IMG/VR virus record: IMGVR_UViG_3300028048_002144
DNA: 64,000 bases
Direction: 5' to 3' (one strand)
Source of the DNA: a virus
Lineage: Duplodnaviria > Caudoviricetes
The notes under the pieces were generated by a model, which saw only the letters and a program-made list of their open reading frames with translations, was not told the DNA's origin and searched no databases. Position 1 is the first letter of the stretch. The number at the start of each line of letters is the position of its first letter. A program made the translations under genes and the position numbers. This document shows, in pieces, positions 5,786 to 48,261 of the stretch.

Positions 5786-6556
5786 CTACTTCAAAAACAA
5801 TCGGAAAATACCATCAATTTCTTCTTTTGTAATTGTAAGATCTTCGTTTTCCCCTTTATTGATTATGTTTTCGTAATCCTCCAAGCTTAACTCAAAATCA
5901 CCAAATGCAGGTTGATGCGTATCATATAAGGAATTTAATTCTCCAAGTATAAATTGAACTTTATTTTTAGGTTTTGTTATCTTTACTACACATGCACTAG
6001 GACTTGGTTTCCCTATTACAAAACATTCATTTTTAGACTTCTCTTCATTCGAAAATTTATCCAAAAATGTAGTTACATGATACAAATCTACTCTTCTATC
6101 AAACTCATTTAATTCTAAGATTTCTTGTTCAATATCAATAAGTGATTCCAAGTTATCATCTATATACGCAAAATGCTCTCTATAATTCTTTTCTTCATGA
6201 CAAATTTCATCGACTAAAAATTTAATTACTGTTCCTTTCTGATCCGAACTATTAACTCCCCAGAAATCATCTCTATCTACAACGTCAGGCATATATCTAT
6301 CCAGGAAGTCTAATTTAGCAAATATTTCCTGGCTACCTCTTGAACAAGAAGACAAGATTAGAATTCTATTGCCTTCATCTTTTAGTCTTTTAATCACGTT
6401 AATTACCGGCACAAAAGGCTTACTATATTCGTCATAACAGGCTCTTATCTTTCTGATATTATTTTCAAAATCATTAGGATCTACCATGATAGTGCCTTCT
6501 TTGTCATTAAAACGAGGAGTAGAAATAACACCATCGAAATCAAAAATATAAATCAT
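5786..6556 (-). CDS. HAD-superfamily hydrolase
   Basis: motif I IFDFDGV, motif II ILILS, motif IV YIDDN. Confidence 0.8.
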   Translation of the reverse strand: MIYIFDFDGVISTPRFNDKEGTIMVDPNDFENNIRKIRACYDEYSKPFVPVINVIKRLKDEGNRILILSSCSRGSQEIFAKLDFLDRYMPDVVDRDDFWGVNSSDQKGTVIKFLVDEICHEEKNYREHFAYIDDNLESLIDIEQEILELNEFDRRVDLYHVTTFLDKFSNEEKSKNECFVIGKPSPSACVVKITKPKNKVQFILGELNSLYDTHQPAFGDFELSLEDYENIINKGENEDLTITKEEIDGIFRLFLK

Positions 6557-6947: not shown

Positions 6948-7031
6948 TGGATAGGGTAGGACTTGAACCTACAATGTCAATAAGACGACAGTTTTACAGA
7001 CTGCTGCATTACCAATTCTGCTCATCTATCC
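6948..7031 (-). tRNA. trnY: tRNA-Tyr(GUA)
   Basis: GCAGT-CTGTAAA-ACTGT anticodon arm, long V-arm, GGTTCAAGTCC T-arm. Confidence 0.9.
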
Positions 7032-7290: not shown

Positions 7291-7379
7291 AGTAGGTGAT
7301 CGGAATCGAACCGATGATCTATAAATAAGACGTACAGTTTTGCAGACTGCCTTCTCGAACCAACAGAGAATTCACCTAC
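7291..7379 (-). tRNA. trnC: tRNA-Cys(GCA) with atypical long variable arm
   Basis: acceptor GTAGGTG/CACCTAC, U73, GCAGT-CTGCAAA-ACTGT, 18-nt variable region. Confidence 0.8.
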
Positions 7380-7557
7380 ATATATAATTATTTTTCTTTG
7401 GTAGTTTGCAATATTGGATATTTGTTCTAGGTTTAGGGCATTGTTCTAATGGTTTCCATTTGAAGCTATCCATTAAATATCCTAGAACACATTGCATTTC
7501 GTATTTGCTACAAGGACTAGATTCAAGTGCTCTACATCCATCACATGATTTTTTCAT
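7372..7557 (-). CDS. small Cys-rich protein
   Basis: 61 aa with CxxC and further Cys; AAGG RBS. Confidence 0.55.
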   Translation of the reverse strand: MKKSCDGCRALESSPCSKYEMQCVLGYLMDSFKWKPLEQCPKPRTNIQYCKLPKKNNYICR

Positions 7558-7559
7558 AA

Positions 7560-7856
7560 TTATCCTTCTTTACTATCTATCCATATAAGTGTAGCTGGAG
7601 CAATTACCAGATAAAATATTGCAATTTTACTAAGAGTTTTCGGTATCAACAAAAAAATTTTCGGAATTAAAAAGAAACACAATAGATCAATAAGATAAAG
7701 TCCTGCTATCATGCGTGGAACAAATCTTTTTGCATGTTCTTCCATTTCATGTTCAGCCTCTCCAATCTTTGTAGTTTTCTCTTCTGGAGAAAGTTCTTCA
7801 TTAGTTATTGTGCTTGTCACTTTTGTTGCAAACTTCATATATTCCTTGAGAAACAT
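7560..7856 (-). CDS. hypothetical membrane protein
   Basis: 98 aa, GGGAG RBS, 2 TM. Confidence 0.65.
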   Translation of the reverse strand: MFLKEYMKFATKVTSTITNEELSPEEKTTKIGEAEHEMEEHAKRFVPRMIAGLYLIDLLCFFLIPKIFLLIPKTLSKIAIFYLVIAPATLIWIDSKEG

Positions 7857-7877
7857 TTCTTTACTCCCTATTAAAAT

Positions 7878-8210
7878 CTACCAGCCTATTGTTAATAAAT
7901 CCAAGCATGTTTCATTATCATGTGTAAATTCTTGATATCCTACTACAATCATTTCCGGATCATAAGAGTCATAGTCTAAAGGATTAATCTTTCCATTTTC
8001 GATTTTAAACACACCACAAAAACCAAACACATTTGACCATCCAGGAATTTTACTTACATCATGTAACTGGATTACAGCATATTTATCCGAAAATAAATCT
8101 GTTTTATCAAACTCAGTTGGCTTTTCTAAAAATGAAAAATCTTTATAGTCATCAGTATTTAATACACGTTGTTTAAGTTTTTCAAAGGTTTCTTTTTCAT
8201 TCATTATCAT
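7878..8210 (-). CDS. hypothetical protein
   Basis: 110 aa, translationally coupled (ATGA overlap). Confidence 0.7.
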   Translation of the reverse strand: MIMNEKETFEKLKQRVLNTDDYKDFSFLEKPTEFDKTDLFSDKYAVIQLHDVSKIPGWSNVFGFCGVFKIENGKINPLDYDSYDPEMIVVGYQEFTHDNETCLDLLTIGW

Positions 8211-8506
8211 GCCTCAAAACAATTTTTATTAGTTTTTGTTTCTGGGTTTTCTGCTAATATTGAATCAAGAATTACTACTCGTGTTCTTTTGGTTTGTTGT
8301 CTAAATTTTTCTAAATCACGATCATCACTAACAAAATATGTATCTGTGTAATTACACTCTAACTCTCTTTTAACAACATCAGAAACAGATTCATATTGCT
8401 GACGTTTTGCGTATCGCAAAAATGCTGCTTTAGCAGCTTCGAAAAAGGGATCTCCTTCTTCTTTTTTAGGCTTAAAAAGATTTTTTATACAAGATAATAC
8501 TTTCAT
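8207..8506 (-). CDS. hypothetical protein
   Basis: 99 aa, AAGGAG RBS. Confidence 0.65.
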   Translation of the reverse strand: MKVLSCIKNLFKPKKEEGDPFFEAAKAAFLRYAKRQQYESVSDVVKRELECNYTDTYFVSDDRDLEKFRQQTKRTRVVILDSILAENPETKTNKNCFEA

Positions 8507-8545
8507 ATTTTCATTCTCCTTATAAATTCAATTATGTTTCTAACA

Positions 8546-8842
8546 TTAATTGTCCTGTAATAATATAATAAGATTTTTCAGAGCTTCTTCTGGAGTATTG
8601 CCTTTACCGATAATATAATCGTTTACATCATGGTCAGGATCATTTCCTTCCCAAAAGTTTTGGCATTCAACATCTCCTGCATCAACAGGAAGTTCAAAAA
8701 ATATATATGATGGAGATAGATTAAACGCAAGAAAGCAAGCTCCCGAATATGCTCCACCATATCTGTCTTCGATAATGCAAAGAGGACATGGTATTTTTAA
8801 ATTTATAAGTTCAGATGATTTCTGGTTTAAATCTTTATTCAT
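8546..8842 (-). CDS. hypothetical phage-like protein
   Basis: true start MNKDL after AAGGAG; the longer track ORF overlaps tRNA-His. Confidence 0.7.
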   Translation of the reverse strand: MNKDLNQKSSELINLKIPCPLCIIEDRYGGAYSGACFLAFNLSPSYIFFELPVDAGDVECQNFWEGNDPDHDVNDYIIGKGNTPEEALKNLIILLQDN

Positions 8843-8865
8843 ATTTTCGTTCTCCTTATAAAAAG

Positions 8866-8951
8866 GGTGAAGGAGGAGACTCGAACTCCCACGAGCATTA
8901 CACTCGGCAGATCCACAATCTGCTGCGTCTTCCAATTTCGCCACCAACACC
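8866..8951 (-). tRNA. trnH: tRNA-His(GUG) with atypical long variable arm
   Basis: G-1:C73, GCAGA-TTGTGGA-TCTGC, V-arm CGAGT-GTAAT-GCTCG; two U:U mismatches in acceptor. Confidence 0.8.
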
Positions 8952-8954
8952 CTA

Positions 8955-9029
8955 TTGCAGAACTGGGAGTCGAACCCAGTATCTCGAGATTATGAGACTC
9001 GAATGGTATATCCGTTCCACTCTTCTGCC
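8955..9029 (-). tRNA. trnM: tRNA-Met(CAU), initiator-like
   Basis: CTCATAA loop, G1:A72 mismatch, A73, GGTTCGACTCC T-arm. Confidence 0.75.
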
Positions 9030-9067
9030 ATGTTATAAAATTATTACAACTAGATTTAGGAAGGTCT

Positions 9068-9138
9068 CTCCCCAGTACAGGACTCGAACCTTGATTTCTT
9101 CGTTTCCAAAGTGTTCTACCGATTGAACTAACCGGGGA
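9068..9138 (-). ncRNA. tRNA-like RNA with GAAA tetraloop replacing the anticodon loop
   Basis: TCCCCGG/CTGGGGA acceptor, G73, normal D-arm, CTTTG-GAAA-CGAAG arm, TTCGAGT T-loop. Confidence 0.65.
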
Positions 9139-9163
9139 TTCGCCTTCCATGTCTAATTGTTTA

Positions 9164-9236
<73 letters not shown>

Positions 9237-9250
9237 CTATTAATAATTAA

Positions 9251-9356
9251 TGTCTACGGTCCGAAAACGCCTCGTCTGCAGCCGATACCTTTTATACTGA
9301 AATAACAGTTTAAGCATGGCCAAAAACTGTGCAAACGTATACACAAGGAATAGACA
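9251..9356 (-). ncRNA. candidate structured RNA between tRNAs
   Basis: nested stems TGTCTA/TAGACA, CGTTTGCA/TGCAGACG, CAGTTT/AAACTG. Confidence 0.4.
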
Positions 9357-9360
9357 GTAG

Positions 9361-9433
9361 TGATTCCTGCGAGAATCGAACTCTGCATCTTAGCCTTGAA
9401 AGGGCTATGTCATAACCATTAGACCAAGGAACC
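9361..9433 (-). tRNA. trnE: tRNA-Glu(UUC)
   Basis: TAGCC-CTTTCAA-GGCTA; one bulge in T-stem. Confidence 0.88.
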
Positions 9434-9543
9434 ATGACTCGTTGTTTAGCTAATTTTTAAGTGGACAACGATAACCACTCGCACTAAATTGTAAAACATA
9501 AAGTTTCATTTAATAATTCAAGTTTAGCCTACTTGTTTATTTG

Positions 9544-10545
9544 TTATCTATCGTCTCCGATATCAAAATCGTCCATAGAATCCGAGATATCTTTTTCCTT
9601 TTTGATATTCGGTTCTGGCTTTTTGTAACATATATCTCCACGTTCTAAATGTATTTCTAAAGCGTGATCCAAAATACGTTCTTTTCTTTCTTGTATCATT
9701 GTCTTATAAAAATTCTTACGAGTATCTGATATGATAGGTGTCTCATCAATGATTTTATTGATTTTATCCATATCAATATTTGGAACGATTTTCGCAATTG
9801 CTCTTACACAATTAATATCATCACTTGAATTAAGCATCTCGTGATAAGTGTATTTTTCTGCATGCTTAATGTCATCTGTTTTTAATAGTGCTGCTTTAGG
9901 AAAATCGTACATTCTTCTATCGATTTCTTCCCTGCTACTTAGAATTTTTTCAAATGCCTTTTCAGCCAATCCAGGATATAAAGAACTACCACAATCATAA
10001 ACAGGTGCTAAACGAATTGTTCGTTCTTGTTCATTAACAAGATATCCCCAGTTCCCCTTATGGCGATCAAAATTGCCAATCAAAGCATCTGCAACAAATG
10101 TATCCCAATACCTAGCTATCGATTCATCTCTAATTACGGATAATAGAGATCGATCTATGGTTCCATATATTTGATTGTATGTTGGTATGCGACCAATCTC
10201 GTTTTTTCTATATACAGTACGCATAAACCAATCGAACTCCTGAAGCTTTTCACCTGGTTGTACAAAGTCTTTACATGCAACAACCGGTTCATCCTCATAC
10301 ACACCTAATAAAGTATCGTGTGTTGGTAATCCCAAAGATCCTACTATATGGCTACCAATGTATTCTGAGAATACGCTGTTTGAGGTGCTTGTTGTCAAAT
10401 CATTAATCTTTTGTTTTTCATCGGCAAATTTAAGCATATAATGTTCGCCATTATAAATGATTGATTTCTTAGAATCTGAACCACCATAATCACGCAAACC
10501 TTGTTGTGCATATGTAAAATCAATGATTTGTTCCATATATACCAC
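9544..10545 (-). CDS. HipA-family Ser/Thr kinase
   Basis: YGGSDSKK loop, YMLKF, SEYIGS, IGNFDRHKGNWG catalytic loop, LAPVYDCGS. Confidence 0.85.
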   Translation of the reverse strand: MVYMEQIIDFTYAQQGLRDYGGSDSKKSIIYNGEHYMLKFADEKQKINDLTTSTSNSVFSEYIGSHIVGSLGLPTHDTLLGVYEDEPVVACKDFVQPGEKLQEFDWFMRTVYRKNEIGRIPTYNQIYGTIDRSLLSVIRDESIARYWDTFVADALIGNFDRHKGNWGYLVNEQERTIRLAPVYDCGSSLYPGLAEKAFEKILSSREEIDRRMYDFPKAALLKTDDIKHAEKYTYHEMLNSSDDINCVRAIAKIVPNIDMDKINKIIDETPIISDTRKNFYKTMIQERKERILDHALEIHLERGDICYKKPEPNIKKEKDISDSMDDFDIGDDR

Positions 10546-10741
10546 CTCTACAGTAATAATCTTTTAAAGCTTCTTGTTGTTCTCGTGTCAAATCGATATC
10601 ATATGAATTAATATCCGAACGAAGATTGTCCATGTAACAATCTGGAAGCTCGCCACCACTGTTTAAATACTCTAACAATTCATCGATATCTCTTTGAATC
10701 AAATACGGAATATTAAAATCGAACTTCTTTGCATAATACAT
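10520..10741 (-). CDS. small acidic protein, putative antitoxin of the HipA-like kinase
   Basis: start MYYAKK after AAAGGAG; overlaps kinase start; own TGnTATACT extended -10 at ~10806-10814. Confidence 0.55.
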   Translation of the reverse strand: MYYAKKFDFNIPYLIQRDIDELLEYLNSGGELPDCYMDNLRSDINSYDIDLTREQQEALKDYYCRGGIYGTNH

Positions 10742-10860
10742 ATATTGTGCTCCTTTTAAATATGTATATCTTTTTATTTGAAACAAAATAACGTTCCATA
10801 TAATTAGTATAACATTATCATTTCTACATTATTTACAAAAATAGATTCGATTTAAAGGAA

Positions 10861-10917
10861 TAGCGATAACCGGATTCGAACCGATACCTTGCAAATGCAC
10901 CATTACACCATATCGCC
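10861..10917 (-). ncRNA. 57-nt mini tRNA-like RNA lacking anticodon arm
   Basis: GGCGATA/TATCGCT acceptor plus A, D-arm GTGT-AATGGT-GCAT, ATCGG-TTCGAAT-CCGGT T-arm; 9 nt between D and T arms. Confidence 0.65.
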
Positions 10918-11144
10918 ATCAGACCGTTTTTAGTCGCCTTTAAAGTTTAATCTCAAAGGATCTCTTGAGTGCGTGATCAAACTCTGTGTCTTTTAATGCC
11001 CTATAGGCTCTGTTCTTTAATGCCCTGTAGGCATGATACTATGATAGGTTTATGGTCTCTTATCCCCGACCTCTCGGATATGTTTAAAGTCTCTAACCCG
11101 ACTAATTTTGAATCGTCCACTAAAGCAGGACCTCTCTAATTTTA

Positions 11145-11489
11145 TCAACTATTTTTAACTAGGATATTCTTCATAAAAATATAGTCATTCAAAAAATCTT
11201 GTATTTTAGCCTTAACCTTTATTGATCCTAGAGTATCTTTCGTTCTATTCATTGTTGAAAATACTAAATCTCTTCTTTTTACATCATCATCAATAAAATA
11301 ACGGGTATCACAATGAAGAGAATTACAAAGTAGTTCTAAATCAAAAGTATTAATTTCTTCGTAAGCAAGTTCATTAGCAATTAGTTTCTTAATTACATCT
11401 TCATCTACAAAAGACTCTTTAGATAAAATAGAACAATCAATATTCAACATATTCATTCTTTTACGCAATTCATTACCAATGTACTTCAT
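11145..11489 (-). CDS. XRE/HTH-like transcriptional regulator
   Basis: IGNELRKRMNMLNIDCSILSKES...LELLCNSLHCDTRYF resembles Cro/XRE fold; AGGAG RBS. Confidence 0.6.
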   Translation of the reverse strand: MKYIGNELRKRMNMLNIDCSILSKESFVDEDVIKKLIANELAYEEINTFDLELLCNSLHCDTRYFIDDDVKRRDLVFSTMNRTKDTLGSIKVKAKIQDFLNDYIFMKNILVKNS

Positions 11490-11538
11490 ACGTAAACTCC
11501 TATTTAACTATGCTTACAAAAGATATCAAAAATATTAT

Positions 11539-11920
11539 TTATCGTGTTTTAGATGATAGAATTTTCATCCAAATCAATCTATATGTATGAATTAAAGACT
11601 CTGTGTATTCTTGCATTTCTTTTAGAATTTTTGGATCTTCAATATGCTTAGGATACCCATATTTTGTTGCATTTAAAAACAAGTGTATCTTAACGTATTT
11701 CTCTCGTATTTTTAATTCTTCCTCAGTCGTATGGTTACCAATATGTATTCCATACTGACCAAACTATTATTTTTAACCAAAACGGAACTTTTTTCATTTC
11801 TTGAATCATTTCTGGGTGATCTATAATATAAATAATTTTACATTTCTCAAGATAAATACGAATAAGAATAAGAATAAGAATTACTATAATTGCTCCAATT
11901 GTAATAATAGTTTCATTCAT
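11539..11920 (-). pseudogene. frameshifted membrane-anchored protein
   Basis: MNETIITIG frame stops at 11735; a second frame (GIHIGNHTTEEELKIREKY...KTR) runs to 11539 without its own start. Confidence 0.4.
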
Positions 11921-11953
11921 TATTGCAATATCTTCCCTTTCTAAAACACTGAG

Positions 11954-12037
11954 CAGGCGTGGAGAGATTCGAACTCTCAGTATCCTTTCGGAGTCATGGT
12001 TTTGGAGACCACTGCTGTTCCGTTGAGCCACACGCCT
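11954..12037 (-). tRNA. trnW: tRNA-Trp(CCA) with atypical long variable arm
   Basis: AGGCGTG/CACGCCT, G73, GTGGT-CTCCAAA-ACCAT, V-arm TCC-GAAA-GGA. Confidence 0.85.
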
Positions 12038-12092
12038 ATAAATAAGTATCAATATTAAGCAATTGTCTAAAATACGAGGTCTCAATACATCA

Positions 12093-12177
12093 GGAGCGTT
12101 GCAGGGAATTGAACCCTAAACTAGTATTTTCCTTCGGCTCAGAACCGCTGTGCTATCCGTTACACCAAACAACGCTC
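12093..12177 (-). ncRNA. atypical tRNA-like RNA (CAGCGGTYCTGA family, copy 1)
   Basis: 8-bp acceptor GAGCGTTG/CAACGCTC, D- and T-arms present, no canonical anticodon arm. Confidence 0.6.
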
Positions 12178-12274
12178 ATATAGGTAATTTAGGCATTTTG
12201 CCAGGGTTTTATGTTGCCAGATGCCTCCATCTTAGCGCAATCTTAAAACCACAACCTATTTACCCACATTTTAA

Positions 12275-12358
12275 CGCAGTATCCAGGACTCGAACCTGGA
12301 AACCATTTCTGGATGCTTGATTAGTAGTCAAGTGCTGTACCAATTGAGCCAATACTGC
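12275..12358 (-). tRNA. trnS: tRNA-Ser(ACU) with long variable arm
   Basis: CTTGA-CTACTAA-TCAAG, V-arm CCA-GAAA-TGG, G73. Confidence 0.75.
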
Positions 12359-12525
12359 ATAATTAATGCAGCTCCTCTTGTCTCGAACCTTTACAGATAG
12401 GAAAGTTAGCTATTCTTTCGTTCGTCTGTTTTCCCCAGATCAAATATGCTGGTCTGTCAGGGGACTCAAGGATACTGCTTTAACTAGGTCGTAATGCCTA
12501 AAATACGAGGTCACAATGCCCCAAG

Positions 12526-12597
12526 CGACTCTACTGGGAATCGAACCCAAATCTTCGGATAGACAGTCCGACATAATAGCCGTTATACCATAGAGCC
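12526..12597 (-). tRNA. trnD: tRNA-Asp(GUC)
   Basis: TCGGA-CTGTCTA-TCCGA, G73. Confidence 0.9.
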
Positions 12598-12859
12598 ATA
12601 GTGCCTACCAATTCACATTATCATACATGGGGGGAGGTTCAAATATGTATGAATATGCTATAAGCTCGGCTTTGCTTCCATTTCAAAAGGAGAATTCTAA
12701 TAATGAAAATAAACGCAGTAAACTATAAACAAAATGAAAGGGGAATACTAAAACAAACACAAAAAAAGTGAATGGTATTTAGTAAACATGCGCTTATTCT
12801 ATTATTAGAGTGCATCTAATGGGATTCGAACCCATACTCTATTGCTAGAAAGGGATTTT

Positions 12860-13545
12860 CGTACCACTATATCTTTCAATACCCATCTGTGTATATGGTT
12901 TGTGGTCTGGAATCAATCTTTGCCCACTACTAAAAGTGTTGGGGCAGGACATGTATATTCTCTACGCACTCACTTAATAGTGATTGGCACGGTATTGCTA
13001 CTAGGAAAAGTTTCACCGTTTAGTGTCCATTCAGCGTAAATATTCCTATTTACCTGCTCATGCTTACCAGAGTAATTCAACTTCTTTTAGTCTGTTTTCC
13101 ATTCGATATAAAAGTTTATAACTATGACTACCTACTTTTCCTGAACATGATTTACTACAAGTTAAATAACGTGTTCTACCACGATTTATATCAACATAAA
13201 ATCTTGTCCATTTATCGCTTTTCATAACAAACTTAGCACCACAAATAATACAGGTTTCAATTGTATCTTTGTATTTTCTAGAATGTTGTTTTTGATGCTC
13301 ACCATGAACTAAAATTTCTAAATTAGATAAATCATTATTATCTGGGTTTTCGTCTTTATGATGAACATCTTCTTCTGGCTTTAATGGCCTGCCTAGCTTC
13401 TTCGCCATTAAAATTCGAGGATATGAAATTACATGTGGTTTGCCATTTTCATCTACACAGTAAGCTCTCCACCTGCCATCCCTGCATTTGTAAGCTTTTT
13501 TAATAAAAAGATCCATATGCTATCCTCTCTAAGGCCTTACTATCT
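12860..13545 (-). mobile_element. group I intron (IC3/trnL-type) carrying a homing endonuclease ORF
   Basis: inserted after U34, terminal G; P-like CTAAACGGTGAAAC, Q-like AATACCGTGCC, R-like GTAGAGAAT, S-like AAGATTGATTCC; P3 GGACA/TGTCC. Confidence 0.85.
13064..13516 (-). CDS. intron-encoded HNH homing endonuclease with C-terminal Zn-finger
   Basis: EEDVHHKDENPDNNDLSNLEIL HNH motif; CIIC...CSKSC; GAGAGG RBS. Confidence 0.85.
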   Translation of the reverse strand: MDLFIKKAYKCRDGRWRAYCVDENGKPHVISYPRILMAKKLGRPLKPEEDVHHKDENPDNNDLSNLEILVHGEHQKQHSRKYKDTIETCIICGAKFVMKSDKWTRFYVDINRGRTRYLTCSKSCSGKVGSHSYKLLYRMENRLKEVELLW

Positions 13546-13831
13546 AAGTCCCTCGTGTCTGCCAGTTCCACCATAGATGCATATTTGTCTACTTAAAGAA
13601 CCATTAGAAATGTAGACTTTATTCTTTTTAATATAAGGATTTATGTTAATCGTACTACCCTATATTTGGAACCTGGTCAAAAATAAATAATAGATCAAAA
13701 TAATAATAATATTGGTTAGTTAACCTTCGTCTCTAATTCTGTTTGTAAATCTTCTTAAACCCATATCATAAGTCTTCCTTTCTGTAGCCTATTTTTTATT
13801 AATAAAATGAGTTTAATGCTTCATTTTTTAA

Positions 13832-13903
13832 CAGCCCATACTGGATTCGAACCAGTGCATCAGGGAGTCAAATTCCCCTGCCTTACCGCTTGGCTAATGA
13901 GCT
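13832..13903 (-). tRNA. trnQ: tRNA-Gln(UUG)
   Basis: GGGGA-ATTTGAC-TCCCT; Gln-type D-arm GCCAAGCGGTAAGGC. Confidence 0.88.
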
Positions 13904-14076
13904 AGATTGTGGGGTTTATCAAACCCCACATGTAAAGATTGAGTTATCTCAAAAAAATAATGAGATAAAGGGTAGGTAGGATTTCTACCATGAAAGAAAG
14001 TATAAAATCAACATTGAGATATCAAAAAGTATCAAAAATATATCTCGAACTATAGTGAAATGGATACTTTTTATAG

Positions 14077-14150
14077 CGGATTCGCCAGGACTCGAACCTG
14101 GGACATCATGATTAACAGTCATGCGTTCTAACCGACTGAACTACGAATCC
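14077..14150 (-). tRNA. trnN: tRNA-Asn(GUU)
   Basis: CATGA-CTGTTAA-TCATG, G73. Confidence 0.92.
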
Positions 14151-14335
14151 ATACAGGAAACATCACTTTGATAAATGACGTTTCCAGGACATCCTTCTAC
14201 AACATGGTAGACGATTATTCGAGGATTTTGATACCGCAGTTCCACAACTGCGTACAACAAACAGAAAGGAAGGTGACGTTACGTGAAGTGCGACCCCTAT
14301 CTGTCTATTGCATTAAATTGTAAGAGACAGAGTGT

Positions 14336-14943
14336 TACATAAACACTCTATAAGAATAACTGCCGAACTCGTTTTACTAACTTCGCTCTATTCTTAATAG
14401 CACCACTATATTCGATCACATGGAAGATACATGCGAACCTAAATTGTACGGGTTTAGGCTATGTACCCTGGCAAGCCATGAAAGGACTGATACCTTTAAC
14501 TTTCACCACCATTCGCATTAAAATAACAGATCCTTATAAATCTTCTGTTTTTAAGATTTTAATGCAAGCATTAGGCTACTCGTACAGACTTCTATTCTTA
14601 TTGGTAAGAATTTCTTCTTACATCTATGCTTTACCTACTTATTTGATTATTCCAACTGCAGTATCCCTTGTTATCACACGCAGGGCTTACAGGGTTCCCT
14701 ACCTATTTCTAGTGGGCTTATTATCGCAGGTGATAGTTTGTCTTATCTTTAGCTTCGTCTATCAAGATATGCCATAACCAACGTTTGAGAGGTTCCTCTC
14801 TTTTATCTCTATTATTACTAATAAAGAAGTGGGCTCTCACATACACTATCGCATATGCTTATCCTTTGATTGCATTATGCCCTAGCAGAGTTGGCGACTC
14901 TTCTGCACTAGGATGGCAATTATTCTTATAGAATGTTTATGTA
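14336..14943 (-). ncRNA. large structured RNA, ROOL-like (~608 nt)
   Basis: 29-bp terminal helix that is perfect (2 G:U) only on the minus strand; many internal hairpins; inside tRNA array; family assignment from size and context only. Confidence 0.6.
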
Positions 14944-14978
14944 TTTTTCAATGTGCATATTAAGCTATTAAAAGCTTA

Positions 14979-15058
14979 GGGGCACCTAGAGAGTCGAACT
15001 CTAACCGGTGTTTTGTCTTTCAGGACCGCTGATGTGCTACCGTTACACTAAAATGCCC
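14979..15058 (-). ncRNA. atypical tRNA-like RNA (CAGCGGTYCTGA family, copy 2)
   Basis: GGGCATT/GGTGCCC acceptor plus C, D-arm GTGT-AACGGTA-GCAC, TCAG-CGGTC-CTGA short arm, TAGAG-TTCGACT-CTCTA T-arm. Confidence 0.6.
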
Positions 15059-15185
15059 ATACTCAATGTTCTATTTAATGTGGGAACAAAGAAGCCACAG
15101 GGTAAAAGAAATGAATGAATTAACAATCCAAGAAATCTTTGATATGAAGTCTTGAAATGATGCTGCCGACAATAACGACAGCAAG

Positions 15186-15259
15186 TGGACCATGTTGGAC
15201 TCGAACCAACGACAGCTCGCTTATGAGGCGAGTGGTCTAACCAACTGACCTAATGGTCC
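15186..15259 (-). tRNA. tRNA(CAU), probably Ile2 (lysidine), else elongator Met
   Basis: GGACCAT/ATGGTCC acceptor, CTCGC-CTCATAA-GCGAG. Confidence 0.85.
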
Positions 15260-15387
15260 ATGCGAGAGACCAAAAATAAACAAGAGAAAGGAGACTGGTC
15301 TCTCTAAAACTATGAAAAAAATATTGATTTATTAAAGCAGAAAGCCCTATGCTCATATAAAACTTACGATAAGACCTTCTGCCTTAA

Positions 15388-15469
15388 TGACCCTGATGGG
15401 ACTCGAACCCACATGAGCTACGCTCGCATGATTAAAAGTCATGTGCCATACCAATTAGGCGACAGAGTC
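15388..15469 (-). tRNA. trnK: tRNA-Lys(UUU) with atypical long variable arm
   Basis: CATGA-CTTTTAA-TCATG, V-arm GAGC-GTA-GCTC, A73. Confidence 0.85.
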
Positions 15470-35021: not shown

Positions 35022-37454
35022 TTAGAATAAACTCTTTCTATCAGTTTTTTGTGTATTATGCTTTTTCTTATCATCTGGTTTAGTTGTAAATAACTTATAC
35101 AACAGTAGATTCTGTGGGAATTCATTTACAAATGGTATAGTTACACCATCTTTTCTAATAAGTCCCTGCCCAAATGGTGATTCATCAATAAATGCTAACT
35201 GAGATTCTGATAAGTTATAATGGTCTCTCAAAATCTCAATACCAGTAGGCTTCTGCGACAGAATCATCATGAATGATGAGTTATCAAGTACACTAAATCC
35301 AGCTTCACTATTAAAGTCTACAATACTCTGTGTAATAGCTGTTGGAACGCCATCCCACTTTCTAGCTCTTCTCCAGATTGTAGATAAGTATTCAGCAGCT
35401 GTTGGAGTCTTTAATGCGTGATGTGCCTCATCAATATAAATACGTGTTCTCTTTCCTTTCGCAAAGTTAGCAATAATCGTATTCCAGATGTGGTCAAGGC
35501 ATACCATGTATCCAGTTTCCTTTAGTCCAGATCCTAATGACTTGATATTGTATACTGTAAATCTGTTATTTACCTCAATATTTGTCTTATGAGCAAATAT
35601 ATCATGAGTTGTAGTATAAAGTTCAAGCTGTGCAGCCAGGTCAGGCGCATATGGGTTATTTTCACTTCTTATGGCATCAATGAAATCTATAAGTGTTGGT
35701 GAGAACTCTGGCTGACAGGTAATACTCTTGTCCTGCAGTAATCTCATTTGTTCAAGATATGGTCTATACATCTTTACTACTGCACTAGAAATCAAACTCT
35801 GTTCTGGAAGTGTCAGTGATCTTGTTTTACCTATCATAGTATCCACTAGTGATAAGATATAATCTGATTTTACCTTTACAGGATCCAGATTAGTCTGATT
35901 ATCTTCATCACCGTACTGTAAGTCCATATCGAATGGGTTCAAGAATAATGTTGAACCTTGTGCAAGTTTAATTTCTGCTCCATTAAATGCTTTTATTAAT
36001 TCTGAATACTCTCCTTCAGGATCAATAATGATAATATCATCATCTGTATTTAAGAATACACTTGCAATCTCTTGCTTTGCAGCCATTGATTTACCAGAAC
36101 CAGGAGTACCAACGATAATTCCGTTAGGGTTATTTCCTTTCGTTCTATCATAGATAAGCATATTCTTTGTATTAGCATTTAATCCGTAGTAGATACCACC
36201 TTCATCCATAAGTTCTACAGAATTAAATGGAATAAACAATGCTACGTTATCAGATGGCATTGTAAAAGGTGTGATTCCATCATCTCTACACAATGGAAGA
36301 ACAGTCTTAAATCCGTCTTCCTGTCTAAATGATAATCTATCTGCCTTAATGATGAATGTATTTAATTCGGTAAGCAATGTTTGCTCATTCATATTTAATT
36401 CATCTAATGTATCAGCAGTAATTAAGAATGTGCAACTGAATAAGAACAGCTTCTGATCTCCAGACTGTACTTCTTCGATTAATTCATTAGCTTGCTCATG
36501 TGCATACTTTAATTTTGGAGAAATCAAATCTCCACTATATCCAGCTTTAAATGCCTGTTTTTCTGCATCAATTACGTCACCACGGATTCCAGTAGCTTTA
36601 TCATTCAGCTTTTTGATAGCTTTATCCTGAGATAATGGAATAATGTTATATGATGCAACTACATTTATTGGCAGTGAAGCTATTGAACTTACAACATCAG
36701 TATTTAAAAGGCTAGGATAATTCTTTACGAATATTGTTCTCGCATATAAATTACCCATTCTAAAGTCATTGATTGAGTTGAAATAGAATCCAGATGGAGC
36801 AATGAAATCTTTAGTTGAGTCGCCACGTTTAGTTAATGTAGCGATATCTATTCTCTCGTCACCCTTGATCTCTTTATTAGTAATCATTTCCTGGATAGTC
36901 GTTAATCTATCTTCAATAGTCTGTGTTTTTACAATAGGCTTAGATGTTTTTGCAAGTCTAGTAAGCTGCTTCTTAATTTCAGAATCATTTCGACCTAACT
37001 GGATTCTTGCTTCTTCTACATCTACAGCTTCTACACCTATTACTAAGTATTTATCTGTTATGATATTATTTCTTCCAGATTTACTCTGTATTTCGAGAAG
37101 TTTATTATAATCTTCTCTATATTCATTGTATGAATCACTTTTCATTCTGATCTTAACTTTTTGAATAGCTGTTTCGTTATCTATTGTTTTATTATGGATA
37201 ACTAACTGTATTCTAGTATTAGATGAAAACGAATTTAAAAATCTAACATAATTGTCGAAGATTTTTTCTTGTTCAACATCAGATGCAGCTGAAAAATTTA
37301 TATCATCCAGCTTATATGCCTTAGTAAAGAACTGTGGTTTTGATTCGATAATACCATCATCATATATGCTGTAATATGGTATAGTCTCTTGTGCTGTTCT
37401 TGGCTTTGGTTCTTTCGCCTTTTTAGGGCTTTTTTTGATATTAACAAAACTCAT
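35022..37454 (-). CDS. virB4: VirB4-family conjugation ATPase
   Basis: YYGLN, GTPGSGKS, IIDPEGEY, IYIDEAH, RRARKW. Confidence 0.92.
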   Translation of the reverse strand: MSFVNIKKSPKKAKEPKPRTAQETIPYYSIYDDGIIESKPQFFTKAYKLDDINFSAASDVEQEKIFDNYVRFLNSFSSNTRIQLVIHNKTIDNETAIQKVKIRMKSDSYNEYREDYNKLLEIQSKSGRNNIITDKYLVIGVEAVDVEEARIQLGRNDSEIKKQLTRLAKTSKPIVKTQTIEDRLTTIQEMITNKEIKGDERIDIATLTKRGDSTKDFIAPSGFYFNSINDFRMGNLYARTIFVKNYPSLLNTDVVSSIASLPINVVASYNIIPLSQDKAIKKLNDKATGIRGDVIDAEKQAFKAGYSGDLISPKLKYAHEQANELIEEVQSGDQKLFLFSCTFLITADTLDELNMNEQTLLTELNTFIIKADRLSFRQEDGFKTVLPLCRDDGITPFTMPSDNVALFIPFNSVELMDEGGIYYGLNANTKNMLIYDRTKGNNPNGIIVGTPGSGKSMAAKQEIASVFLNTDDDIIIIDPEGEYSELIKAFNGAEIKLAQGSTLFLNPFDMDLQYGDEDNQTNLDPVKVKSDYILSLVDTMIGKTRSLTLPEQSLISSAVVKMYRPYLEQMRLLQDKSITCQPEFSPTLIDFIDAIRSENNPYAPDLAAQLELYTTTHDIFAHKTNIEVNNRFTVYNIKSLGSGLKETGYMVCLDHIWNTIIANFAKGKRTRIYIDEAHHALKTPTAAEYLSTIWRRARKWDGVPTAITQSIVDFNSEAGFSVLDNSSFMMILSQKPTGIEILRDHYNLSESQLAFIDESPFGQGLIRKDGVTIPFVNEFPQNLLLYKLFTTKPDDKKKHNTQKTDRKSLF

Positions 37455-47342: not shown

Positions 47343-47891
47343 TTACACATACGAATTCTGTAAAAACTCTATTGTTTTTTCGTGGTAATTAGCATTCTCC
47401 GTCTTACTCATTAAATCGAACGCTTCTTCTCTAGTTAATGCGTCTCGATATGGTCTTGACGATGTTAATGCTTCATACACATCTATCGTATGCAGGATCT
47501 TTGCATATTCTAGTATCTTTTCCGTTTTCTTAAATTCAACCGGCATTAATGTTTCAGGATTTTCAGTATGATGATACAGTATGATGTATCGAACTTCTTC
47601 ACTTATGTTCGTTTCATTTAATAGTTCAAAACTAAAATATGCATGGTAGTTAACTATCTTTCTTTCAAGATTAGTTAATCGTCCAGGTTTATTCAGAATG
47701 CTTTCTGATAGGTAATATTTTCCTACGTCATGGAATAATGCTGCGGTAGATAAAACCCCTTCATCTAAATTTAGGGTTTGTTCTAAAACCTTCGCTATGT
47801 TATACATTCTGATACTGTGTCTTCGGGTAATTAAGGGTAATCTCTCTACGAGTTCACTTTCCTTATCTCCCCACTGGTCAAAATTTTCCAT
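47343..47891 (-). CDS. HD-GYP-type phosphohydrolase (GYP motif degenerate)
   Basis: HSIR, ALFHDVGK, ILNKPGRLT, YHH-E, DVYEALTSSRPYR. Confidence 0.8.
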   Translation of the reverse strand: MENFDQWGDKESELVERLPLITRRHSIRMYNIAKVLEQTLNLDEGVLSTAALFHDVGKYYLSESILNKPGRLTNLERKIVNYHAYFSFELLNETNISEEVRYIILYHHTENPETLMPVEFKKTEKILEYAKILHTIDVYEALTSSRPYRDALTREEAFDLMSKTENANYHEKTIEFLQNSYV

Positions 47892-48261
47892 CTATTTCTT
47901 AGCAGGATACCTCGATTTTTATAAGTCAAGAATCCCCTACGTCTCCTTTCTGTAAATTACTGATATGTTTATTGCTATAAGCCGGTACATACCAACCGTA
48001 ATGCAGCCTTCGCCAATGTTATTATGAGGTTTTTGTAAGCAACACTGTTCCTACCCATCAGAACTGTTTAATCACTTACCTTAGAGCTACAGACTAGGCT
48101 GTACATCCGTAGGTAACTATACATGACAATGAAACTGCTAATGTTTCATTGTATATTCTCATATAACGTAGTCAGTTAAGACTTAGGCTAGTCAATTAAG
48201 GCTTTTACAAGCCTCCACTTCAATGATTATGAAATAATCGTAAGTGGTGGGTTATTGACAT
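47892..48261 (-). mobile_element. ORF-less IscB-type element with full-length omegaRNA (HEARO-like)
   Basis: GTCAATAACCC...GGCTTG...TTGACTAGCCTAAG...CTACGTT...CCTACGGATG...CCTAGTCTGTAGCTCT...AACATTGGCGAAGG; RBS GAAAGGAG runs straight into right-end hairpin. Confidence 0.8.

What the first reader, a model, noticed from the sequence alone, without database searches (positions are those of the whole stretch)
7291..15469. Four normally class I tRNAs (Cys, His, Trp, Lys) carry base-paired long variable arms
Seen: Cys (GTCT-loop-AGAT), His (CGAGT-GTAAT-GCTCG), Trp (TCC-GAAA-GGA) and Lys (GAGC-GTA-GCTC) all have V-arms. They retain cognate discriminators (U73, G-1:C73, G73, A73). Known: bacterial long V-arms are normally limited to Leu, Ser, Tyr and Sec and are a SerRS determinant; anticodon nucleases such as PrrC and PARIS AriB target tRNA-Lys. 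Inference: the extra arms either shield these tRNAs from host tRNases/toxins or cause Ser/Leu mischarging.
Basis: partly seen in the sequence, partly recalled or inferred. Interest (0 to 1): 0.82.

Follow-up and report, generated by a model that had tools for sequence, protein, structure and literature searches.

The report
Phage-plasmid tRNAs with extra arms
A large phage-plasmid of gut or rumen Lachnospiraceae carries real cysteine, histidine, tryptophan and lysine tRNA genes with an extra hairpin arm that textbooks reserve for serine, leucine and tyrosine tRNAs. This build is recurrent in phages, I found no paper describing it, and its purpose (perhaps escape from bacterial tRNA-cutting defences) is untested.

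Summary
Observation confirmed. ARAGORN, Rfam/Infernal and free folding all show tRNA-Cys, -His, -Trp and -Lys of 82-89 nt with a 14-18-nt variable region holding a 3-5-bp hairpin. All four keep their cognate identity elements.

Two related metagenomic elements carry homologous long-armed Lys, His and Trp genes. Substitutions in their stems preserve pairing, including one compensatory change in the His extra arm. So the genes are maintained, not decayed.

The arms look acquired by module exchange. Cys shares its anticodon arm and half its extra arm with the neighbouring tRNA-Tyr, and it aligns best to the tRNA-Sec model, like the published selC* tRNA-Cys.

In unselected IMG/VR samples, long arms occur in 6% of Lys, 17% of Cys, 4% of Trp and 3% of His tRNAs that match the same anticodon-arm pattern. 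None was found among about 135 tRNA-Lys matches in 401 Bacillota genomes.

This scan has already found long-armed Lys/Asn/Thr tRNAs on other phage DNA. This window adds His, Trp and Cys together in one array.

Function is inferred, not shown. Most likely these are working cognate tRNAs whose changed shape evades host tRNA-targeting enzymes. Serine mischarging is unlikely, except possibly for Trp.

The parts
15388..15469 (-). tRNA-Lys(UUU) with extra arm; variable region 15413-15426 (4-bp stem, 3-nt loop); A73; 3-bp D stem (13:22 U.U)
   Evidence: ARAGORN. Rfam 59.2 bits with the insert in the variable region. MFE gives a five-arm cloverleaf. Homologues at L193 8082-8163 and L206 6533-6614: 72/72 pair cells paired, compensatory changes at 7:66 and 50:64, extra-arm stem invariant, loop G/U.
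8866..8951 (-). tRNA-His(GUG) with extra arm; variable region 8891-8906 (5-bp stem, 5-nt loop); encoded G-1 (8951) paired with C73 (8866); tandem mismatches 4:69 and 5:68
   Evidence: ARAGORN. Rfam 38.2 bits. MFE keeps the hairpin. Homologue at L206 9477-9562: the extra-arm stem has one compensatory A-U to G-C change and one U.G to U-A change, and the T stem has two compensatory changes.
11954..12037 (-). tRNA-Trp(CCA) with extra arm; variable region 11979-11995 (3-bp stem, GAAA loop); A1:U72, G73; 13:22 C.C
   Evidence: ARAGORN. Rfam 53.0 bits with a 13-nt insert. The homologue at L193 6667-6746 also has an extra arm, but of different sequence (4-bp G+C stem, 3-nt loop), and keeps A1:U72 and G73. 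The MFE fold of the window copy does not pick this hairpin.
7291..7379 (-). tRNA-Cys(GCA), tRNA-Sec-like: 8-bp acceptor, 4-bp T stem, 5-6-bp D stem; variable region 7316-7333 (4-bp stem with a G.U pair, 7-nt loop); U73
   Evidence: ARAGORN. Best Rfam model is RF01852 tRNA-Sec, 41.7 bits (gathering score 47), aligned as 8/4 with a 6-bp D stem. MFE gives the same fold. A 25/26-nt block (anticodon arm plus the 5' half of the extra arm) is shared with tRNA-Tyr. No homologue was found in relatives.
6948..7031 (-). tRNA-Tyr(GUA), ordinary class II tRNA; likely source of the anticodon-arm and extra-arm module of tRNA-Cys
   Evidence: ARAGORN. Rfam 50.6 bits. Alignment A1: identical to Cys over the anticodon arm and the first 9 nt of the variable region apart from U35/C35 and one indel, and unrelated elsewhere.
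12275..12358 (-). tRNA-Ser(ACU), a chimera: acceptor, T arm and short extra arm of the relatives' tRNA-Ser(UGA), with the D arm like the window's tRNA-Thr; G73. Evidence that tRNA domains are exchanged within these arrays
   Evidence: ARAGORN. Rfam 56.9 bits. blastn synteny with L193 14821-15263. Alignment A5 with L193 15116-15197, L206 12445-12527 and L210 4949-5030; the extra-arm stems differ but all pair.
14346..14936 (-). ROOL RNA embedded in the tRNA array (context)
   Evidence: Rfam RF03087, 205 bits. Also present inside the related array at L193 8552-9130, 240 bits.

Best explanation
These are four genuine tRNA genes of a roughly 205-kb phage-plasmid, probably hosted by Lachnospiraceae. 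They most likely decode Cys, His, Trp and Lys codons and are charged by the host's cognate synthetases.

The extra hairpin in the variable region is a maintained structural feature. It comes with the class II-type 3-bp D stem in Lys, Trp and His. It was probably acquired by exchange of tRNA domains with class II or Sec-like tRNAs inside the array.

The window is an unusually complete example of a phage-enriched design that I could not find described in the papers I could search.

Most likely purpose (inferred, not shown): the arm projects next to the anticodon stem and the core, so host enzymes that must grip a class I shaped tRNA no longer fit. Such enzymes include anticodon-arm nucleases of the AriB, PrrC, VapC or colicin kind, and other tRNA-modifying toxins. 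Synthetases, EF-Tu and the ribosome already handle class II tRNAs and would still accept the molecule.

My odds:
- Real, maintained tRNAs with a selected arm: about 0.8.
- Cognate charging: about 0.7.
- Defence evasion as the reason: about 0.4.
For: Real tRNAs with the arm:
- (gene finders, covariance models, folding).
- Hairpins beat shuffles.

Maintained in relatives:
- Homologous Lys, in three lineages: all pairs kept, compensatory changes at 7:66 and 50:64, arm stem invariant.
- His: one compensatory and one conservative change inside the arm stem, two compensatory changes in the T stem.
- Trp: arm present in both lineages with unrelated sequence.

Cognate identity:
- The window carries U73+GCA, G-1:C73+GUG, G73+A1:U72+CCA and A73+UUU. 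These match the bacterial determinants in PMC9976931.
- The same determinants are kept by independent long-armed His, Cys and Trp tRNAs in IMG/VR.
- 100 of 134 long-armed Lys tRNAs have A73.

Co-adaptation:
- 13:22 is mismatched in the window's Lys, Trp and His.
- It is paired in only 41% of long Lys tRNAs against 80% of short ones.

Enrichment in phages:
- Long arms occur in 7/114 Lys, 20/117 Cys, 5/117 Trp and 3/116 His pattern matches in IMG/VR.
- None among about 135 Lys matches in 401 Bacillota genomes (Fisher p=0.004).

Module exchange:
-.

Context for defence evasion:
- Phage tRNAs are a known answer to tRNA nucleases. AriB cuts between positions 40 and 41, three bases from where the arm emerges, and needs contacts outside the anticodon arm (PMC12409363).
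- The window's Lys keeps the sensitive U36-A41 sequence, so any escape would have to be by shape.
- A polynucleotide-kinase-like ORF lies beside the array (5786-6556; weak PHROG hit).
Against: - No expression, processing, charging or cleavage data.
- The comparative sample for the window's own lineage is tiny: 2-3 sequences per tRNA, and the shuffle controls are not significant on their own.
- No homologue of the Cys gene was found.
- The Trp hairpin has only 3 bp and is not in the MFE fold.
- The His acceptor stem carries two mismatches and scores low (38 bits).
- AriB and the other named nucleases are from distant hosts, and no defence system of the real host is known.
- Class switching also runs the other way: 40 of 100 tRNA-Leu in the sampled phage loci are short. 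That could mean arrays simply tolerate shuffled domains.
- The cellular control covered Bacillota around a Mollicutes-like genome, not Lachnospiraceae.
Confidence: 0.5

Rival explanations
1. Neutral by-product. tRNA genes packed in mobile arrays recombine at their conserved arms, so class II arms land on class I tRNAs and are merely tolerated. The arm has no function of its own.
For: - Clear chimeras: Cys shares a block with Tyr, and Ser(ACU) combines Ser and Thr-like parts.
- Switching in both directions: 40/100 tRNA-Leu are short in phage loci.
- The window also holds several aberrant tRNA-like genes.
Against: - Arms persist across three diverged lineages, with pairing kept and one compensatory change.
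- 71 of 115 distinct Lys arms fold better than 95% of their shuffles.
- The D stem is co-adapted.
- Each long-armed tRNA is the only gene for its anticodon found in the array stretches held here: the 64-kb window, L193 and L206.
Confidence: 0.2
2. Recoding or mistranslation. The arm makes SerRS (or LeuRS) charge these tRNAs, so Cys, His, Trp or Lys codons are partly read as Ser or Leu.
For: [quoted passage not shown]
- The element's own Ser tRNAs have equally short 3-4-bp arms.
- Trp has G73, G2:C71, C11:G24 and G30:C40, and its arm hairpin is identical to that of the relative's tRNA-Ser(UGA).
- From my own knowledge: allo-tRNAs and nematode long-armed tRNAs are precedents for charging that ignores the anticodon.
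Against: - All four keep full cognate sets, including G-1:C73 and U73, each sufficient on minihelices.
- Lys, His and Cys lack G73 and G2:C71.
- Lys is 97 per 1000 codons in the element's own genes, so Lys-to-Ser misreading would be very costly.
- Independent phage examples also keep cognate determinants.
Confidence: 0.08
3. Handle for a partner encoded by the element. The arm is recognised by a phage-plasmid factor, for example a processing or modification enzyme, or the ROOL RNA cage embedded in the same array. That partner sorts, protects or delivers the element's own tRNAs.
For: - ROOL sits inside the array here and in the relative.
- ROOL forms a nanocage and lies near tRNA islands, and tRNA encapsulation has been suggested (bioRxiv 10.1101/2024.12.08.627333).
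- GAAA-capped hairpins recur: the Trp arm, the Ser arm, and a tRNA-like gene with a GAAA loop in place of the anticodon loop.
Against: - Most long-armed phage tRNAs in IMG/VR come from very different phages, and I did not check them for ROOL.
- Arm sequences are not conserved between lineages, and the Lys and His arms lack GNRA loops.
- No candidate binding protein was identified.
Confidence: 0.1
4. Non-decoding decoys or decaying pseudogenes. The genes are not used in translation. They soak up toxins or synthetases, or do nothing.
For: - The same array holds tRNA-like genes that cannot decode: a tetraloop in place of the anticodon loop at 9069-9137, and a 57-nt armless form at 10861-10917.
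- His scores low and has acceptor mismatches.
- Overexpressed viral tRNAs were suggested to inhibit AriB by competition (PMC12409363).
Against: - Intact 7-nt anticodon loops with U33 and a purine at 37.
- Their anticodons match codons the element uses heavily.
Confidence: 0.07

Closest known systems
selC* tRNA-Cys (Mukai et al. 2017, NAR 45:2776, PMC5389517)
   Same: For the Cys gene: GCA anticodon and U73 on a tRNA-Sec-like body with a long extra arm, an 8-bp acceptor and a 4-bp T stem. It was reported in anaerobic Firmicutes including Clostridia, the likely host group here.
   Different: Here it lies on a phage-plasmid, with no Sec machinery in view. The anticodon stem has 5 bp rather than 6. 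The anticodon arm and half of the extra arm are shared with the neighbouring tRNA-Tyr. It scores below the Rfam Sec gathering score.
[quoted passage not shown]
   Same: Phage-encoded copies of tRNAs that a host nuclease targets. They differ from the host versions in ways that spare them from cleavage while decoding continues.
   Different: The documented T5 Lys escape rests on base changes at positions 39 and 41. The window's Lys keeps the sensitive U39 and A41 and carries an extra arm instead (against the sequence). Resistance is untested here, and the host phylum differs.
Canonical class II tRNAs (Leu, Ser, bacterial Tyr)
   Same: Long base-paired variable arm and a 3-bp D stem. Accepted by EF-Tu and the ribosome.
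   Different: The anticodons and acceptor identity elements are those of Cys, His, Trp and Lys. The arms are short (3-5 bp). The bacterial serine set is mostly absent.
allo-tRNAs and (8/4) tRNA-His/Ser of phages (PMC5389517); nematode long-armed tRNAs with Gly/Ile anticodons (from my own knowledge: Hamashima et al. 2012)
   Same: Long-armed tRNAs that carry anticodons of class I amino acids, some of them in phage tRNA clusters.
   Different: Those are Ser or Leu acceptors, or have 8/4 or 9/3 branches, and the published (8/4) tRNA-His lacks G-1. The window's His, Trp and Lys are 7/5 with cognate identity sets.
Long-armed Lys/Asn/Thr tRNAs noted earlier in this scan on other phages (for example e1-5378880, e1-4047742, e1-2001464)
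   Same: The same design: a class I anticodon and identity with a short extra hairpin, phage-enriched, and not found in the searchable literature.
   Different: This window adds His, Trp and a Sec-like Cys in one array, in a Firmicute phage-plasmid with ROOL RNA. It also gives direct evidence that the arms arise by domain exchange.

Membership tests
Bacterial class I tRNA-Cys/His/Trp/Lys | Variable loop of 4-5 nt | tested here: not met
   Variable regions are 18, 16, 17 and 14 nt. The window's ordinary tRNAs and the cellular tRNA-Lys matches have 4-5 nt.
Bacterial class I tRNA-Cys/His/Trp/Lys | Cognate anticodon plus acceptor-end identity determinants (U73; G-1:C73; G73 with A1:U72; A73) | tested here: met
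   Read from the sequence against Table 1 of PMC9976931. The minor Cys determinants G2:C71 and C3:G70 are absent.
tRNA (Rfam RF00005) | Score above the gathering threshold of 29 bits | tested here: met
   Lys 59.2, Trp 53.0, His 38.2 bits. Cys is reported under the clan's Sec model instead.
Class II tRNA-Ser (SerRS substrates) | Large variable arm together with G73, C72, G2:C71, R4:Y69, C11:G24 | tested here: not met
   Lys has A73 and A2:U71. His has C73 and U2:A71. Cys has U73 and U2:A71. Trp has G73, G2:C71 and C11:G24, but U72 and C4:G69 (sequence). Actual charging cannot be tested with these tools.
selC* tRNA-Cys (PMC5389517) | tRNA-Sec-like cloverleaf found by the Sec covariance model | tested here: inconclusive
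   RF01852 is the best model at 41.7 bits, E=1e-7 on the local search, but below the gathering score of 47. It aligns as an 8-bp acceptor, 4-bp T stem and 6-bp D stem.
selC* tRNA-Cys (PMC5389517) | U73 discriminator with GCA or UCA anticodon, and a long extra arm | tested here: met
   U73 at 7291, GCA anticodon, 18-nt variable region.
selC* tRNA-Cys (PMC5389517) | Lengthened (6-bp) anticodon stem; genome also carries selA/B/C/D | tested here: not met
   The sixth pair is a G/A mismatch in the Sec-model alignment. Sec genes could not be looked for, because no host genome is held.
allo-tRNA (PMC5389517) | 8/4 or 9/3 acceptor branch with serine identity | tested here: not met
   His, Trp and Lys fold as 7/5. 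Only Cys is 8/4, and it has Cys identity.
Nuclease-escape phage tRNAs of the T5 type | Base substitutions at the AriB cleavage site (positions 39 and 41) | tested here: not met
   The window's Lys reads U39, C40, A41, the sequence cleaved in E. coli tRNA-Lys.
Nuclease-escape phage tRNAs of the T5 type | Resistance to the host nuclease with retained decoding | not testable with these tools
   Needs cleavage assays with defence nucleases of the real host.
Phage long-armed tRNAs with class I anticodons (no published name found) | 10-21-nt variable region with a 3-5-bp hairpin, cognate discriminator, frequent 13:22 mismatch, located in a phage tRNA array | tested here: met
   The window's four genes match the profile of 134 long-armed Lys tRNAs and of the His, Cys and Trp examples from IMG/VR.

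The most novel reading that the evidence does not exclude
The extra arm is a general, isotype-independent armour: a small structural add-on that lets phage and plasmid tRNAs keep working when hosts destroy or disable class I shaped tRNAs. If so, the set of armoured isotypes in an element (here Lys, His, Trp, Cys) reads out which tRNAs its host's defences attack, which would point to still unknown His-, Trp- and Cys-directed tRNA nucleases or toxins in Lachnospiraceae. A still bolder variant, which I give under 5%, is that the arms dock the element's tRNAs to the ROOL RNA cage encoded in the same array.
Probability: 0.3. Interest if true: 0.85.

Novelty: new variant of a known kind. Interest (0 to 1): 0.68.

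Why it matters
The split of tRNAs into class I (short loop) and class II (long arm: Leu, Ser, bacterial Tyr, Sec) is a textbook rule and underlies serine identity. This element breaks the rule for four amino acids at once while keeping their identity marks. Sampling shows that phages do this repeatedly and the cellular genomes I searched do not.

If the arm is protective, it would be a new, shape-based way of escaping tRNA-targeting immunity, beyond the known base changes in the anticodon arm. It could also be used to predict which tRNAs a host's defences hit.

The design also offers natural scaffolds for engineering orthogonal or nuclease-resistant tRNAs. Finally, it warns that automated annotation labels these genes by anticodon without flagging their shape.

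Tried and rejected
Searches for near relatives that found nothing:
- GenBank phages and PLSDB plasmids by megablast: none. A distant search hit only ordinary tRNAs.
- IMG/VR relatives of two array proteins: none.
- The exonuclease next to tRNA-Lys has one homologue only, on a 1.5-kb contig.

Searches limited by what is held:
- The HipA-like kinase inside the array has many homologues, but their contexts (L001-L007, L128, L129) hold no tRNAs. The closest ones (95% and 71% identical, GCA_024712465.1) have no DNA on hand.
- No whole genome is held for the window, nor for the metagenomic relatives or the Lachnospira multipara record. Host chromosomal tRNAs could therefore be checked only in a Bacillota sample.
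- The supplement of Mukai et al. is not held, so I made no direct sequence comparison with published selC* genes.

Literature:
- Searches for a description of long-armed class I phage tRNAs found none. Subscription journals are not covered.

Readings rejected:
- The extra sequence is an intron. It is 10-14 nt, sits in the variable region, and bacteria have no known mechanism to remove it.
- The ACU tRNA is a fifth class I tRNA with an arm. It is a Ser tRNA homologue.
- The element uses a changed genetic code. Long ORFs are open under table 11.

Full report
WHAT IS THERE. The window is A+T-rich (32% G+C). It carries a large terminase (35022-37454, PHROG hit), a replication initiator and a ParA ATPase, a ROOL RNA and a HEARO RNA. 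The window's own copy of the 110-aa ORF at 7878-8210 lies on a 205,278-bp contig. I therefore read the element as a large phage-plasmid.

Between 6947 and 15470 the minus strand holds a tRNA array. ARAGORN finds 13 tRNAs. Rfam finds these plus three weaker tRNA-like genes. Nine genes are ordinary. Cys, His, Trp and Lys are 84-89 nt, where 72-76 nt is expected.

CHECK OF THE OBSERVATION. Infernal aligns Lys, Trp and His to the general tRNA model with the extra 11-14 nt as an insertion exactly in the variable region.

The extra hairpins:
- Lys (variable region 15413-15426): a 4-bp stem with a 3-nt loop.
- His (8891-8906): a 5-bp stem with a 5-nt loop.
- Trp (11979-11995): a 3-bp stem capped by GAAA.
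- Cys (7316-7333): a 4-bp stem with one G.U pair and a 7-nt loop.

Free-energy folding without constraints returns a five-arm cloverleaf for Lys and Cys and keeps the hairpin in His, but does not choose the Trp hairpin. Each hairpin is more stable than most shuffles of its own letters: the fraction at least as stable is 0.09 for Cys, 0.017 for His, 0.06 for Trp and 0.019 for Lys.

They match the bacterial determinants tabulated by Giege and Eriani (PMC9976931):
- Cys: U73 with GCA.
- His: an encoded G-1 paired to C73, with GUG.
- Trp: G73 with A1:U72, G2:C71, G3:C70 and CCA.
- Lys: A73 with UUU.

Lys, Trp and His also have a mismatch at 13:22, which gives the 3-bp D stem typical of class II tRNAs. 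None of the genes encodes CCA.

CYS IS A SPECIAL CASE. Its best Rfam model is tRNA-Sec, at 41.7 bits (gathering score 47). The alignment shows an 8-bp acceptor stem, a 4-bp T stem and a 6-bp D stem, and the MFE fold agrees.

This is the architecture Mukai et al. described as selC* tRNA-Cys: U73, a GCA or UCA anticodon, and a Sec-like body, found in anaerobic Firmicutes among others (PMC5389517).

The Cys gene also shares a 25/26-nt block with the neighbouring tRNA-Tyr. The block covers the whole anticodon arm and the first nine bases of the variable region, and the only substitution within it is U35/C35, plus one indel. The rest of the two genes is unrelated.

RELATIVES. The element has no near relative in GenBank phages, PLSDB or IMG/VR. 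A pattern built from the Lys anticodon arm and T arm found 62 class I tRNA-Lys genes in metagenome contigs and one long-armed one, L132. Through a small neighbouring ORF this led to L193 and L194. Homologues of the 110-aa ORF at 7878-8210 led to a third lineage, L206 and L207. One homologue of that ORF, 82% identical, is in Lachnospira multipara, which suggests the host group. L193 also has a ROOL RNA inside its array.

What the homologues show:
- Lys is present in all three lineages. All 72 pair cells form standard pairs. 7:66 changes G-C to A-U, and 50:64 appears as U-A, A-U and G-C. The extra-arm stem is invariant while its loop varies.
- His in L206 differs from the window copy at ten positions. 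Seven lie in stems and all keep pairing. These include an A-U to G-C double change and a U.G to U-A change inside the extra arm. The odd tandem mismatches of the acceptor stem are retained.
- Trp in L193 has an extra arm of unrelated sequence (a 4-bp G+C stem) and the same A1:U72 and G73.

With two or three sequences per gene the formal shuffle controls are not significant. The pattern is nonetheless that of working tRNAs whose arm is kept.

ORIGIN OF THE ARMS. The tRNA that ARAGORN calls Ser(ACU), at 12275-12358, is syntenic with tRNA-Ser(UGA) of the relatives. It shares their acceptor stem, T arm and short extra arm, while its D arm is nearly identical to that of the window's tRNA-Thr. It is a chimera that still looks like a serine acceptor, and ACU reads a serine codon.

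Together with the Tyr/Cys block, this shows that whole tRNA domains are exchanged within these arrays. That is a simple route by which class I tRNAs could acquire arms.

I also saw that the window's Trp hairpin is identical to the arm hairpin of L193's tRNA-Ser(UGA), and that the His and Lys arms resemble each other. These motifs are short, so the resemblance may be chance.

HOW COMMON IS THE DESIGN.

ARAGORN on those loci gave 134 long-armed Lys tRNAs, with these properties:
- Acceptor stems are essentially perfect.
- A73 in 100 and U73 in 33.
- Variable regions are 11-21 nt.
- There are 115 distinct arms, of which 71 fold better than 95% of their shuffles.
- 13:22 is paired in 41%, against 80% of the short Lys tRNAs from the same loci.

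The same loci hold long-armed forms of other isotypes: Asn 11/55, Cys 8/45, Ile 13/77, Thr 12/90, His 5/53, Trp 4/49 and others. There are none for Ala, Asp or Val. Twenty of the 120 loci have three or more long-armed class I isotypes.

The long-armed His, Cys and Trp examples keep G-1:C73, U73, and A1:U72 with G73 respectively.

In unselected samples using one pattern for both arm lengths, long arms make up:
- Lys: 7 of 114 contigs.
- Cys: 20 of 117.
- Trp: 5 of 117.
- His: 3 of 116.

The same Lys pattern in 401 Bacillota genomes gave about 135 listed matches, all with the class I spacing (Fisher p=0.004). Those genomes are a sample around a Mollicutes-like genome, not the Lachnospiraceae host group.

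Earlier notes of this scan report the same design for Lys, Asn and Thr in other phages. My IMG/VR results agree with them independently.

FUNCTION. Shown: real tRNA genes, a maintained extra arm, retained cognate identity marks, and enrichment in phages relative to the cells sampled.

Inferred: cognate charging. G-1:C73 and U73 are each sufficient for His and Cys identity on minihelices, and LysRS and TrpRS read the anticodon. The serine set is largely missing, except partly in Trp.

Further inferred: the reason for the arm. The best available idea is escape from host enzymes that attack tRNAs.
- Phage tRNAs are an established counter to such defences.
- PARIS AriB cuts tRNA-Lys, Thr and Asn between positions 40 and 41, and needs contacts beyond the anticodon arm (PMC12409363).
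- The extra arm leaves the body three bases further on.
- The window's Lys keeps the very sequence AriB cuts, unlike T5's escape variant. Any protection would have to be steric.
- From my own knowledge, tRNA-Cys and tRNA-Trp are targets of mycobacterial VapC toxins, and tRNA-His is a target of colicin E5. So each of the four isotypes has a precedent as a nuclease target.

None of this was tested here, and the relevant host defences are unknown. The alternatives are a tolerated by-product of recombination, partial serine mischarging, a handle for a partner such as the co-located ROOL cage, or decoys. They are weighed under rival explanations.

NOVELTY AND VERDICT. The Cys gene falls within, or next to, a published class (selC* tRNA-Cys). 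Long-armed His, Trp and Lys tRNAs with cognate identity I could not find described in eight full-text searches. Subscription literature was out of reach.

I rate the finding as a new variant of a known kind: phage-encoded tRNAs, some of which are known to be reshaped against defences. It is real and of fairly high interest, and its function is open.

Noticed in passing
window 12811-13580 (-): A class II tRNA-Leu(UAG) appears to be split in its anticodon loop by an insertion of about 685 nt that encodes an HNH endonuclease (ORF 13064-13516, Pfam HNH_3). Both exon halves are readable. Rfam reports no group I intron there.
   Followed up: partly
window 9069-9137 (-); L193 about 9830-9900; L206 about 9330-9400: A tRNA-like gene (Rfam 39.5 bits) whose anticodon loop is replaced by a GAAA tetraloop on a 5-bp stem. 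The relatives keep the tetraloop while the stem sequence is entirely different, so the shape is conserved and cannot decode.
   Followed up: partly
window 8955-9029 (-); L193 8491-8565; L206 8197-8271: A CAU-anticodon tRNA that ARAGORN misses in the window. It has a 5-bp anticodon stem plus a mismatched sixth pair (or a 9-nt loop) and a G1/A72 mismatch. The feature is conserved in relatives, where it is called tRNA-Met.
   Followed up: partly
window 10861-10917 (-): A 57-nt tRNA-like gene (Rfam 38.6 bits) with acceptor, D-like and T arms but no anticodon arm, just upstream of the HipA-like kinase gene.
   Followed up: no
window 12093-12177 (-) and about 14985-15070 (-): Two related aberrant tRNA-like genes share the D arm and a short hairpin. 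The first (ARAGORN 'Gln-CUG') folds with a 9-bp acceptor and a 4-bp T stem and weakly hits the tRNA-Sec model (25 bits), so it looks allo-tRNA-like.
   Followed up: no
window 9544-10545 (-) with upstream ORF 10520-10786 (-): A HipA_C-only kinase of 333 aa, preceded by an overlapping 88-aa ORF, sits in the middle of the tRNA array. From my own knowledge, this layout recalls the HipS/HipT pair, whose kinase targets TrpRS. Homologues are common on plasmid-like contigs of gut and rumen Firmicutes.
   Followed up: partly
L193 6909-6979 (also in L132 and L194): The related element carries a tRNA with anticodon UUA (an ochre-suppressor type) and apparently a 4-bp anticodon stem. Its acceptor stem begins like that of tRNA-Trp.
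   Followed up: no
L193 about 9590-9830: The relative's tRNA-Thr homologue seems to be interrupted after the anticodon stem by an insertion of about 190 nt. The window's copy (9164-9236) is intact.
   Followed up: no
window, 31 large ORFs: The stop codons are TAA in 26, TAG in 5 and TGA in 0. Long frames are open under the standard bacterial code, so this looks like TGA avoidance rather than reassignment.
   Followed up: partly
window 47998-48259 (-): HEARO RNA (Rfam 128.6 bits) lies upstream of a 182-aa ORF (47343-47891), presumably an IS605/IscB-type mobile element inside the phage-plasmid.
   Followed up: no
L008-L127 (IMG/VR loci): Forty of 100 tRNA-Leu genes in these phage tRNA arrays are only 73-79 nt, so they lack the long arm. 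Class switching in phages therefore also runs from class II to class I.
   Followed up: no
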